Of a DNA stretch of 7,784 nt, positions 244 to 476 are shown piece by piece. The stretch lies in IMG/VR virus record IMGVR_UViG_2648501498_000001; one strand, 5' to 3'. Both the position numbers and the translations under genes were made by a program. The stretch's first letter is position 1; every line of letters begins with the position of its first letter. The notes beneath the pieces are model-generated. The model worked only from the letters and a program-made list of their open reading frames with translations, was not told the DNA's origin and ran no database searches. Source of the DNA: a virus. Taxonomy: Monodnaviria > Loebvirae > Hofneiviricota > Faserviricetes > Tubulavirales > Inoviridae.

Positions 244-476
244 GGTTTTTCTGAGCTGATGTTGTTAATCCTGTCGAGACTCTACATTCCTTTAGCTATT
301 TTTTAAATCGTATTTTCGTATCCGAGACGCCAGCACGCCGATGAAGAAGATAAGGGGAGGAGGACGGAGGAACGCCAGCCGCACCCGCCCGCAGGGTCGA
401 GGACGGGAGCGCCTGCCGTGACGACGGACGACAATCACGATGATGATGATTCTTGGCGTGTTTGGGCAGGGATAAA

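What the first reader, a model, noticed from the sequence alone, without database searches (positions are those of the whole stretch)
330..470. GC-rich, purine-skewed island with no convincing gene
In an otherwise AT-leaning phage, about 330-430 is strongly G+A-rich on the + strand (GGGGAGGAGGACGGAGGAACGCCAGCCGCACCCGCCCGCAGGGTCGAGGACGGGAGCG), followed by a GATGATGATGAT run. The only reading frames are Arg/Pro-rich on the minus strand or a 26-aa Arg/Gly peptide (341..421) with no RBS, which look like composition artefacts. It lies in the large non-coding region where filamentous phages keep origins and the packaging signal, so it may be a structured origin element or a small RNA.
Basis: seen in the sequence. 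Interest (0 to 1): 0.45.

Follow-up and report, generated by a model that had tools for sequence, protein, structure and literature searches.

The report
Strand-specific DNA hairpin signal in filamentous phage
The GC- and purine-rich island is not a gene but one long hairpin that forms only in the single-stranded form of an E. coli filamentous prophage; the same hairpin also sits on tiny plasmids, and it is most likely the signal that marks DNA for packaging, or else the start site for copying the second strand.

Summary
In detail: window 328-427 is the most GC-rich 100 nt of the window (0.71 against 0.435) and is 65-67% purine.

The window is one unit of a CTXphi-like E. coli inovirus prophage integrated at dif.

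The island is non-coding. It is one imperfect hairpin of about 155 nt on the + strand (318-475). The arms pair with a 3-nt period: one Watson-Crick pair followed by a tandem 5'-GA-3'/3'-AG-5' mismatch. The apical loop (388-403, CCCGCAGGGTCGAGGA) is invariant.

The stems co-vary within E. coli and between E. coli and Pandoraea inoviruses. The hairpin ends one base before the plus-origin nick hairpin (476-499), which is homologous to the CTXphi one.

The island occurs with five unrelated replication-initiator families. Its type follows the virion-assembly module instead. The alternative hairpin A' is found in exactly the 22 genomes that carry the second Zot type.

The island is also an add-on in small rolling-circle plasmids that already have an Ff-type minus origin. 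Most of these plasmids occur in matching lysogens.

- That it is a functional single-strand hairpin signal: about 0.9.
- Packaging signal: about 0.45.
- Complementary-strand origin: about 0.30.
- Small RNA or protein: rejected.

The parts
318..475 (+). The whole imperfect hairpin ('island A'), about 155 nt.
   Evidence: Hairpin alignment gives 47 Watson-Crick, 17 G.A and 2 G.T pairs. z is 7.3 against shuffles. The same search on the - strand scores half as much.
388..403 (+). Apical 16-nt loop, CCCGCAGGGTCGAGGA. It can form a CCC-GCA-GGG mini-hairpin (a C-GNA-G triloop) followed by unpaired TCGAGGA. Alternatively it can form a helix with two bulged A residues.
   Evidence: The loop is invariant except for position 397 in all E. 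coli, E. albertii and Pandoraea copies. The covariance model scores 58.7 bits on the + strand and 10.4 bits on the - strand.
359..387 (+). 5' arm of the upper stem. It is GGA-rich and pairs with 404-432.
   Evidence: In alignment A1, 71% of cells are paired, against 24-40% when the partner is slid. Nine pairs show changes on both sides, against 0-3 in the slid controls. The G.A positions become Watson-Crick pairs in L009, L011, L012 and L025.
404..432 (+). 3' arm of the upper stem. It is rich in GAC repeats and includes CTG at 413-415.
   Evidence: CTG is absent in the L007/L014 variant.
343..350 (+). GAAGAAGA run in the 5' arm of the lower stem. It lies opposite the GAT run.
   Evidence: The pairing pattern is 5'-GAA-3'/3'-AGT-5', that is a tandem G.A followed by an A-T pair.
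439..452 (+). GATGATGATGAT(TC) run in the 3' arm of the lower stem.
   Evidence: The run is conserved in most homologues.
333..338 (+). Basal stem, CACGCC. It pairs with GGCGTG at 455-460.
   Evidence: The basal stems differ by sequence context yet stay complementary. In plasmid L002 they are TTTAACGCGATATA / TATATTGCGTTAAA.
455..460 (+). Basal stem, GGCGTG. It is the partner of 333-338.
476..499 (+). Adjacent element, not part of the island: the plus-strand origin nick hairpin ACCCCCGT-CTTGTAAC-ACGGGGGT. The nick is predicted between G487 and T488.
   Evidence: CTXphi has the same stem, ACCCCCGT-CTAGTATT-ACGGGGGT, next to rstR. RstA nicks between G and T in that loop (PMC4439123). The hairpin is conserved in other Vibrio inoviruses.
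509..526 (+). Second hairpin of the origin module, GGAAAC-TCAAGG-GTTTCC.
   Evidence: It is shared with L006, L008, L009 and L013.
1..92 (+). Context: a forked hairpin made of two inverted dif-like sites, resembling the CTXphi-type attP(+).
   Evidence: Inverted repeats pair 1-12 with 81-92, 19-33 with 66-80, and 30-43 with 55-68. The prophage sits in tandem at dif.

Best explanation
The island is a cis-acting signal that exists only in the single-stranded + strand, which is the strand displaced by rolling-circle replication and packed into virions. There it folds into one long imperfect hairpin.

The arms are held together by G-C or A-T pairs alternating with tandem 5'-GA-3'/3'-AG-5' mismatches. 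This accounts at once for the purine skew and for the GGA, GAC, GAA and GAT triplet runs. It also means the complementary strand and the double-stranded form cannot form the same structure. The tip displays an invariant 16-nt loop.

My best reading is that this hairpin is the phage's morphogenetic (packaging) signal. On this reading it is the duplex-like structure left uncoated by the phage's single-strand DNA-binding protein. It is recognised by the assembly proteins encoded with the Zot/secretin module, and it starts extrusion of the + strand.

Small rolling-circle plasmids and a 3.7-kb satellite-like element that carry the same hairpin would then be packaged by the phage, as natural phagemids.

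Shown here: the hairpin, its strand specificity, its conservation, and its association with the assembly module and with the plasmids. Inferred: recognition by assembly proteins, and packaging itself.
For: The structure is real and specific to the + strand.
- Covariation within E. coli.
- Covariation across genera: 86.7% of cells paired against at most 48% in slid controls, and 9 of 12 stem pairs changed on both sides.
- L007/L014 have lost one base on each side of the apical stem, which removes one whole pair.
- The model scores 58.7 bits on the + strand and 10.4 on the - strand.

It is independent of the replication initiator. It occurs with Rep_trans, Phage_CRI/G2P, REP_ORF2-G2P, Rep_1, and RepL together with a Rep_trans-like protein.

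The island type follows the assembly module.
- S1 Zot with Rep_trans (this window) carries A.
- S1 Zot with a G2P Rep (L011) carries A.
- S2 Zot with Rep_trans (E24377A) carries A'.
- S2 Zot with a G2P Rep (16F5M1D1) carries A'.
- A' is found in exactly the same 22 genomes as the S2 Zot.
- Phages carrying loop A have related Zot proteins: 56% identity for L006 and 38% for Pandoraea. The Zot of the A' phage is unrelated.

Every island-bearing plasmid already has an Ff-type minus origin placed just before its rep genes. A related plasmid replicates with that origin and no island.

The island entered the plasmids at two or more different sites. One plasmid backbone carries A in L013 and A' in L008.

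The only A' plasmid lives in one of the 22 S2 lysogens. It also carries copies of the plus-origin hairpins of two phage Rep types.

At least 9 of about 15 plasmid hosts carry an inovirus, against 105 of 5426 genomes overall.

The M13 packaging-signal hairpin is also a GC-rich imperfect hairpin, and its tip is a C-GCA-G triloop (sequence). In Pandoraea and L012-type prophages the hairpin directly follows the secretin gene, as the Ff signal does.
Against: - No packaging experiment exists.
- 22 nt at the tip are identical between E. coli and Pandoraea phages whose Zot proteins share only 38% identity. That fits recognition by a conserved host enzyme better than recognition by diverged phage proteins.
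- The same loop on a different 9-bp stem occurs in a tailed dsDNA phage contig (L170). A filamentous-phage packaging signal makes no sense there.
- In the window the hairpin sits immediately 5' of the plus origin. In Ff that slot is held by the minus origin, not the packaging signal.
- The prophages show no other recognisable minus origin. The 260 nt after the secretin gene are also structured (z -2.5) and could be the real packaging signal.
- The link to the assembly module could simply reflect that the exchanged cassette is 'plus origin to ssb' and the island lies just outside it.
- One plasmid host, JNE21-009, has an empty dif site.
- There is no sequence similarity to the M13 intergenic region beyond the triloop.
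Confidence: 0.45

Rival explanations
1. Complementary (minus) strand origin, that is a single-strand origin or initiation site. On the free + strand the hairpin escapes SSB coating and recruits a host priming enzyme. That enzyme could be DnaG primase directly, a PriA primosome, or RNA polymerase. A short RNA primer is laid down and extended leftwards by DNA polymerase III. This converts single-stranded DNA into the replicative form.
For: - The element is non-coding, strand-specific and co-oriented with rep in every replicon seen.
- It is independent of the initiator family. That is the expected property, because only host enzymes act at such sites (PMC5714925).
- It lies directly 5' of the plus-origin nick hairpin. 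This is the canonical position of a single-strand origin relative to the double-strand origin (PMC4595007).
- It behaves as a mobile cassette, as the Ff-type minus origin does in the same plasmids.
- The loop is identical in beta- and gamma-proteobacterial phages and in a tailed phage. This suggests a conserved host factor.
- G4 oric and the phiX174 F-G spacer also contain GNA/GNNA mini-hairpins (GCGAAAGC and GCGAAGC).
- A GCGAAGC mini-hairpin follows the island in L010, L011 and Pandoraea.
- The prophages have no Ff-like minus origin.
Against: - All carrier plasmids already own an Ff-type minus origin, and a relative replicates without the island.
- The island type follows the assembly module, not the host or the Rep type.
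- An exact-pattern scan of 2.9 million viral contigs found the exact motif almost only in one Zot lineage.
- There is no similarity to G4 oric, the phiX174 spacer or the M13 origins.
- There are no -35/-10-like hexamers, no CS-6 (TAGCG) and no GAAGCGG.
- The CTG at 413 is not conserved.
Confidence: 0.3
2. Accessory part of the plus-strand origin. On this reading it is a structure-prone enhancer that helps HU or the initiator to nick the neighbouring hairpin.
For: - It ends one base before the nick hairpin.
- The CTXphi plus origin was defined as 167 bp with several inverted repeats, and it needs HU (PMC4439123).
- CTXphi ig-1 variants carry fragments resembling the loop: CCCGCAGGGAC, and CCGCAG...CGAGGA.
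Against: - It occurs next to unrelated plus origins and initiators.
- In L012-type prophages it lies far from any origin, after the secretin gene.
- The homology break between this window and E24377A falls exactly between the island and the nick hairpin.
- The conserved CTXphi origin core starts 3' of the variable segment.
- The CTXphi fragments do not score with the model.
- The G.A design works on one strand only, so cruciform extrusion from duplex DNA is disfavoured.
Confidence: 0.08
3. Single-strand DNA promoter of the Frpo type. The incoming + strand would be transcribed leftwards from the hairpin, expressing the small minus-strand membrane protein (243..103) before the second strand is made.
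For: - The 3' arm holds GTGACG, an 18-nt spacer, then GATGAT. The GATGAT lies in the mismatched GAT/GAA region, so the -10-like element would be pre-melted (read).
- A small minus-strand ORF lies downstream, both here and in E24377A and 16F5M1D1, where it is annotated.
Against: - The hexamers match only 8 of 12 positions and were not reported by the scan.
- They are not conserved in the L015, L012 or Pandoraea variants.
- In the plasmids, leftward transcription would only be antisense to rep.
Confidence: 0.05
4. A protein-coding remnant, a small RNA, or a composition artefact with no function.
For: The triplet periodicity of the GGA, GAC, GAT and GAA runs. One + frame (307-501) is open, though it has no start codon.
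Against: - No frame stays open across homologues, and 1-nt indels occur.
- There is no Rfam or tRNA match.
- Stem covariation with an invariant loop holds across genera.
- The element has been captured repeatedly by other replicons.
Confidence: 0.03

Closest known systems
Ff (M13/f1/fd) packaging signal, hairpin A of the intergenic region
   Same: - Non-coding, GC-rich, imperfect hairpin on the packaged + strand.
- Lies in the intergenic region between the secretin gene and the replication genes.
- Orientation-specific.
- Its tip is a C-GCA-G triloop (M13 ...TTACGC-GCA-GCGTGA...).
- Confers packaging on any single-stranded replicon. This is the basis of laboratory phagemids (own knowledge).
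   Different: - No sequence similarity.
- About twice as long in E. coli.
- Arms are built from tandem G.A mismatches.
- The 16-nt loop is conserved across genera.
- In the window it sits next to the plus origin, not directly after the secretin gene.
- Function is untested.
Single-strand origins and initiation sites: the Ff minus origin, ssoA/ssoU of rolling-circle plasmids, G4-type and phiX174-type ssi
   Same: - Strand-specific hairpins.
- Act without the Rep protein.
- Usually lie just upstream of the double-strand origin.
- Move as cassettes between unrelated replicons (PMC4595007, PMC5714925).
- G4 and phiX174 sites contain GNNA/GNA mini-hairpins.
   Different: - No similarity to any of them.
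- None of their defining motifs is present.
- The carrier plasmids already have an Ff-type minus origin.
- The type follows the assembly genes.
CTXphi ig-1 region (attP(+) hairpin plus RstA plus-origin)
   Same: - The window has the same layout: inverted dif-like sites, about 300-380 nt of spacer, a nick hairpin with an identical stem, then the 3' end of the repressor gene.
- The segment 5' of the origin core is a swappable module in CTXphi too.
   Different: - The island itself has no significant CTXphi counterpart.
- Only short loop-like fragments are shared.
Extra-stable DNA mini-hairpins d(GCGAAGC)/d(C-GNA-G) and tandem sheared G.A duplexes (own knowledge of the nucleic-acid structure literature)
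   Same: - The apex CCC-GCA-GGG fits the C-GNA-G class.
- All tandem mismatches are in the 5'-GA-3'/3'-AG-5' orientation that forms sheared pairs.
   Different: - Here the motif repeats with a 3-nt period over about 30 positions of a natural hairpin.
- Its stability in these particular flanking contexts has not been measured.

Membership tests
Inovirus packaging (morphogenetic) signal | Non-coding imperfect hairpin formed by the packaged + strand | tested here: met
Inovirus packaging (morphogenetic) signal | Works in one orientation only (strand-specific) | tested here: met
   The mismatches are G.A on the + strand only. The model scores 58.7 against 10.4 bits. It is always co-oriented with the phage genes or rep. 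Functional orientation dependence was not tested.
Inovirus packaging (morphogenetic) signal | Matched to the assembly proteins of its phage | tested here: met
   A' and the S2 Zot occur in the same 22 genomes. A occurs with the S1, S3 and Pandoraea Zot lineage. This holds independently of Rep type. Linkage by block inheritance is not excluded.
Inovirus packaging (morphogenetic) signal | Sufficient to get a foreign single-stranded replicon into virions | not testable with these tools
   The evidence is indirect only. The island is an add-on in small plasmids that are found mostly in matching lysogens.
Inovirus packaging (morphogenetic) signal | Sequence homology to the Ff signal | tested here: not met
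   No blastn similarity to M13 5500-6005. Only the GCA triloop is shared.
Single-strand origin (sso/ssi), generic | Rep-independent and found with unrelated initiators | tested here: met
   Five initiator families.
Single-strand origin (sso/ssi), generic | Located just upstream of the double-strand origin on the displaced strand | tested here: met
   It ends at 475 and the nick hairpin is 476-499. This is not so in L012-type prophages.
Single-strand origin (sso/ssi), generic | Needed for efficient conversion of single strands to duplex, and the carriers lack another such site | tested here: not met
   All carrier plasmids have an Ff-type minus origin. L407 replicates without the island. For the prophages the test is inconclusive, because no other minus origin was recognised.
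Ff-type minus origin / Frpo (RNA-polymerase type) | -35 and -10 mimics in the hairpin stems, and homology to Ff hairpins B and C | tested here: not met
   No promoter-like site in 300-480. No similarity to M13.
G4-type ssi (primase type) | Three stem-loops with a conserved single-stranded CTG start 3' of stem-loop I | tested here: not met
   No similarity to G4 3860-4040. CTG at 413-415 lies inside the stem and is missing in L007, L014 and Pandoraea.
phiX174-type primosome assembly site | Hairpin with a GAAGCGG-like consensus (own knowledge), bound by PriA | tested here: not met
   The motif is absent. PriA binding cannot be tested here.
ssoA of Gram-positive plasmids | RSB, and CS-6 (TAGCGT) in the terminal loop | tested here: not met
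   No TAGCG in 319-474.
Small RNA or protein-coding gene | A promoter and terminator, a curated RNA family, or a conserved reading frame | tested here: not met

The most novel reading that the evidence does not exclude
The hairpin (A), and its alternative A', are packaging tags. Small rolling-circle plasmids of 2.0-2.8 kb and a 3.7-kb satellite-like element have captured them repeatedly, which would make them natural phagemids.

Each of these plasmids keeps its own Rep and an Ff-type minus origin. Each adds the tag that matches the filamentous prophage circulating in its host. In two cases (L008 and L013) the plasmid also carries the helper's plus-origin hairpin. Such plasmids would spread inside filamentous virions.

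The periodic tandem-G.A architecture would be the device that lets a 150-nt hairpin exist in single-stranded DNA without forming a destabilising palindrome in the duplex form.
Probability: 0.35. Interest if true: 0.8.

Novelty: new variant of a known kind. Interest (0 to 1): 0.6.

Why it matters
Apart from Ff, the cis-acting signals of filamentous phages are largely unmapped. That gap includes the CTXphi-like integrative phages that carry toxins.

This hairpin gives a concrete, testable candidate for the packaging signal or the minus origin of a whole lineage of dif-integrating E. coli and Pandoraea inoviruses.

If it is the packaging signal, two things follow. Small cryptic plasmids in diarrhoeagenic E. 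coli would be hitch-hikers of filamentous phages. That would be a route of horizontal transfer that is not counted at present, because these plasmids are typed as non-mobilizable. It would also yield a portable tag for building phagemids for non-Ff phages.

The arm design also matters on its own. A Watson-Crick pair alternating with tandem sheared G.A over tens of bases is an unusual natural DNA structure. It explains how a long hairpin can be specific to one strand.

Tried and rejected
- Rfam at a permissive E-value gave no match in the island. There is no tRNA or tmRNA and no tandem repeat by TRF.
- Standard folding of 300-600 as DNA or RNA, on either strand, was not significant. It also hid the hairpin, because G.A pairs are not credited.
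- No cultured phage in the GenBank/INPHARED collection matches the whole window, the intergenic region, or the 40-nt apex.
After filtering for a flanking stem, only Pandoraea-type copies and one uncertain contig (L345) remained.
- Full-text search for the motif sequence found nothing relevant.
- The idea that the island is the plasmids' only single-strand origin was dropped once the Ff-like origin was found. That idea had rested on the island being the most stable 160-nt fold in 3 of 4 plasmids.
- A G-quadruplex from GGGGAGGAGGACGGAGG was rejected because the G-runs are not conserved in L009 and L011.
- A CTXphi counterpart of the island was not confirmed. The loop-like fragments score only 10.5 bits (E 6.7) or not at all.
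- Pfam and PHROGs gave nothing for the 75-aa plasmid protein.
- Caveat on covariation. In inverted repeats, template-switch 'quasipalindrome correction' can create paired changes without selection. The covariation therefore proves that the hairpin forms, not what it does. L170 was picked from chance matches because it had a stem, so there is a selection bias for that case.

Full report
**What the window is**

The 7784 bases are one unit of an Escherichia coli filamentous (Inovirus) prophage. It matches 13 complete E. coli genomes at more than 98% identity over at least 93% of its length. In strain JNE070796 it sits in tandem at the dif region. It has no close relative among cultured phages.

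The genes are as follows:
- a leftward repressor-like gene (585-800);
- a Rep_trans (RstA-like) initiator (1132-2328);
- structural genes;
- DUF2523, Zot (5210-6268) and a secretin (6265-7524).

Bases 1-92 fold into a forked hairpin made of two inverted dif-like sites, as in the CTXphi attP(+). The island lies in the 844-nt intergenic region that runs from the secretin gene across the window ends to the repressor gene.

**Checking the observation**

The island is real. The most GC-rich 100-nt window of the whole sequence starts at 328 (0.71 against 0.435 overall). Purines reach 0.66-0.67 against 0.476.

- No frame stays open in all homologues.
- Homologues differ by single-base indels.
- In one variant (L007/L014) one base is lost on each side of the apical stem. 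That removes a base pair rather than a codon.

**Anatomy**

Walking outwards from CCCGCAGGGTCGAGGA (388-403), the two flanks pair over about 70 positions, spanning 318-475. The count is 47 Watson-Crick pairs, 2 G.T pairs and 17 G.A pairs.

The G.A pairs are not scattered. They come as tandem 5'-GA-3'/3'-AG-5' steps separated by single Watson-Crick pairs. GGA repeats on the 5' arm face GAC repeats on the 3' arm. Lower down, GAA repeats face the GATGATGATGAT run.

From established nucleic-acid chemistry (my own knowledge), this orientation of tandem G.A forms stable sheared pairs. On the complementary strand the same positions would be C.T, so the hairpin belongs to the + strand.

With G.A credited, the hairpin scores 94 against 54 +/- 5 in dinucleotide shuffles (z 7.3). 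Without the credit, z is 3.5. Standard folding missed it.

**Comparative evidence that the hairpin forms**

The 115-nt core (338-452) recurs at 83-96% identity in the following places:
- other E. coli filamentous prophages with different repressors and initiators;
- a 3.66-kb tandemly repeated Rep+SSB element (L010);
- a remnant on plasmids of about 90-170 kb;
- E. coli and E. albertii plasmids of 2.0-2.8 kb.

Where the window has G.A steps, L009 and L011 have Watson-Crick pairs produced by changes on one arm. L012 and L025 have a perfect 21-bp stem of different sequence under the same tip.

On 17 distinct sequences the upper stem is 71% paired, against 24-40% when the partner is slid. Nine pairs changed on both sides, against 0-3.

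The tip, with its closing pairs (CCGCCCGCAGGGNCGAGGACGG), also sits on unrelated stems in Pandoraea prophages. These are inoviruses with Zot, a secretin, an HUH Rep and an integrase, and the hairpin lies between the secretin and rep genes on the coding strand.

Across genera the stem is 86.7% paired, against at most 48% in controls. Nine of 12 pairs changed on both sides. A covariance model finds one copy in the window, on the + strand only.

One caveat applies. Inverted repeats can acquire paired changes by template switching. This proves that the hairpin forms, not what it does.

**Neighbours**

The hairpin ends one base before ACCCCCGT-CTTGTAAC-ACGGGGGT (476-499). CTXphi has ACCCCCGT-CTAGTATT-ACGGGGGT at the same place next to rstR. 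RstA nicks between G and T in that loop (PMC4439123). The hairpin is also conserved in other Vibrio inoviruses.

So 476-565 is the plus-strand origin, and the island lies immediately 5' of it. In phages with a G2P-type initiator the island is followed instead by a GCGAAGC-type mini-hairpin and a different origin hairpin.

**What it is not**

- Not a small RNA. There is no Rfam hit, no promoter, and terminator-like hairpins lie on both sides.
- Not a tRNA.
- Not similar to G4 oric, the phiX174 F-G spacer or the M13 intergenic region, and lacking their motifs.
- Not Rep-specific. It occurs with Rep_trans, Phage_CRI/G2P, REP_ORF2-G2P, Rep_1, and RepL plus a Rep_trans-like protein.

**Minus origin or packaging signal?**

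My first reading was a single-strand origin. The reasons were these:
- it acts without the Rep protein;
- it is orientation-locked;
- it lies just upstream of the double-strand origin (PMC4595007; PMC5714925);
- it is cassette-like;
- its loop is identical in beta- and gamma-proteobacterial phages, and in one tailed-phage contig (L170).

All of this would fit a conserved host priming enzyme.

Later results pull the other way.

(i) Every island-bearing plasmid also carries a 120-nt segment that is 72-83% identical to the M13 minus origin (hairpins B and C). It is placed just before the RHH and rep genes. A related plasmid (L407) has that origin and no island. The island is therefore an add-on for the plasmids.

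(ii) The add-on was acquired at different sites. One plasmid backbone carries island A in L013 and the alternative hairpin A' in L008.

(iii) A' is a hairpin of the same tandem-G.A design, but with a GGGA tip. It replaces A in E24377A-type prophages, whose origin, repressor and Rep are about 99% identical to the window's but whose assembly genes are different.

(iv) The island type follows the assembly module in all four combinations of two Zot types with two Rep types. A' occurs in exactly the 22 genomes that have the second Zot type. Phages with loop A share one Zot lineage, at 56% and 38% identity.

(v) The single A' plasmid lives in one of those 22 lysogens. It carries copies of A' (92% identical to the resident prophage) and of the G2P-type plus-origin hairpin segment (90%). 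It also carries the Rep_trans-type nick hairpin (module B).

(vi) At least 9 of about 15 plasmid hosts are inovirus lysogens, against 2% of all genomes. One host has an empty dif site.

(vii) The M13 packaging hairpin is likewise a GC-rich imperfect hairpin tipped by C-GCA-G.

**Verdict**

That 318-475 is a functional, + strand-specific single-strand hairpin signal is well supported (about 0.9). Its role is not settled.
- Packaging signal: about 0.45.
- Minus-strand origin: about 0.30.
- Plus-origin accessory: about 0.08.
- Single-strand promoter: about 0.05.
- Anything else: under 0.05, with the remainder unassigned.

Both leading roles are known kinds of element. The sequence family, the periodic G.A architecture and the sharing with small plasmids appear to be undescribed in the sources I could search.

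Noticed in passing
window 1-92: A forked hairpin built from two inverted dif-like sites. GTGCGCATAATG pairs with CATTGTGCGCAC, and there is a perfect 14-bp stem at 30-43/55-68. This suggests integration of the single-stranded phage by XerCD, as for CTXphi. The prophage is in tandem at dif.
   Followed up: partly
window 476-565: The plus-strand origin. The nick hairpin has the same stem as the CTXphi hairpin where RstA cuts. The predicted cut is CTTG^TAAC, between 487 and 488. The same module sits on Rep_1 plasmids L008 and L013, which do not encode a Rep_trans protein.
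   Followed up: partly
window 103-243, - strand: An unannotated 46-aa ORF encoding a small membrane-type protein (MHDMILDLLMKYLIAGSLFGMFLFSVITIVLPIVLRAHNKINRSND). A similar 57-aa gene is annotated at the same place in E24377A and 16F5M1D1. It is probably a real gene.
   Followed up: partly
window 7520-7784: The 260 nt after the secretin gene are structured (z -2.5). They include two hairpins with AAC triloops (ATGCCGC-AAC-GCGGCAT and AGCGC-AAC-GCGCT). This stretch travels with the assembly module and is an alternative candidate for the packaging signal or the minus origin.
   Followed up: partly
L002 489-605, L007 1425-1542, L008 1392-1515, L013 1321-1435, L003, L004, L014, L015, L407 1917-2046: Small E. 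coli and E. albertii rolling-circle plasmids carry a segment 72-83% identical to the M13 minus-strand origin (hairpins B and C). It appears to serve as their single-strand origin.
   Followed up: partly
L008 1400-2000 (p16F5M1D103) and L406 9200-9800 (reverse complement): One 2.7-kb Rep_1 plasmid holds four phage-derived elements in a row: an Ff-type minus origin, a G2P-type origin hairpin, hairpin A', and the Rep_trans nick hairpin. Its host carries an S2-type prophage with A' and the G2P-type origin. The copies are 90-92% identical, so they are not fresh.
   Followed up: partly
L010 1-10204 (strain cM8a, dif region): A 3.66-kb unit encoding a G2P-type Rep, an SSB, an 87-aa protein and an HTH protein, repeated at least three times in tandem. 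It has no assembly genes but carries island A. It looks like an RS1-like satellite.
   Followed up: no
L170 9890-9960 (tailed-phage contig with terminase and portal genes): The same 16-nt loop sits on an unrelated perfect 9-bp stem in a dsDNA phage. On the opposite strand a T-run follows it, like a terminator. Neither leading hypothesis explains this.
   Followed up: partly
L405 540-555 and L404 3388-3429 (CTXphi ig-1 variants): Fragments resembling the loop occur between attP and the plus origin in the two ig-1 types: CCCGCAGGGAC, and CCGCAG-[hairpin]-CGAGGA. They are not significant with the covariance model. The segment holding them is swappable between CTXphi records.
   Followed up: partly
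L002 274-501, L004 1949-2179, L007 1207-1437, L008 1177-1404, L013 1106-1333: A conserved acidic protein of about 75 aa, with no family match, accompanies the island module in all of these plasmids, whatever their Rep.
   Followed up: partly
L409 9461-11833 (JNE21-009 chromosome): This O166:H15 strain carries the 2012-bp island plasmid but has an empty dif site. Sister strains JNE070796 and JNE21-003 have the prophage there.
   Followed up: partly
NZ_AP045060.1 (9613-bp 'plasmid' of JNE25-005): It carries an S2-type Zot (92.7%) and A' (85.7%). It is probably the episomal replicative form of a filamentous phage that has been annotated as a plasmid.
   Followed up: no
L002 flanks compared with L008 1040-1075 (alignment A3): L008 and L013 show an 'empty site' where L002 carries island A. 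In L002 the 3' flank of the island is an inverted copy of the 5' flank (TTTAACGCGATATA / TATATTGCGTTAAA). This suggests insertion or growth of the hairpin by template switching.
   Followed up: no
window 4400-4550: The only other GC- and purine-rich stretch of the window. It is a (GGT ACT/GGC ACA)-type repeat encoding the Gly/Thr linker of the 493-aa adsorption protein. The copy in JNE070796 is longer.
   Followed up: no
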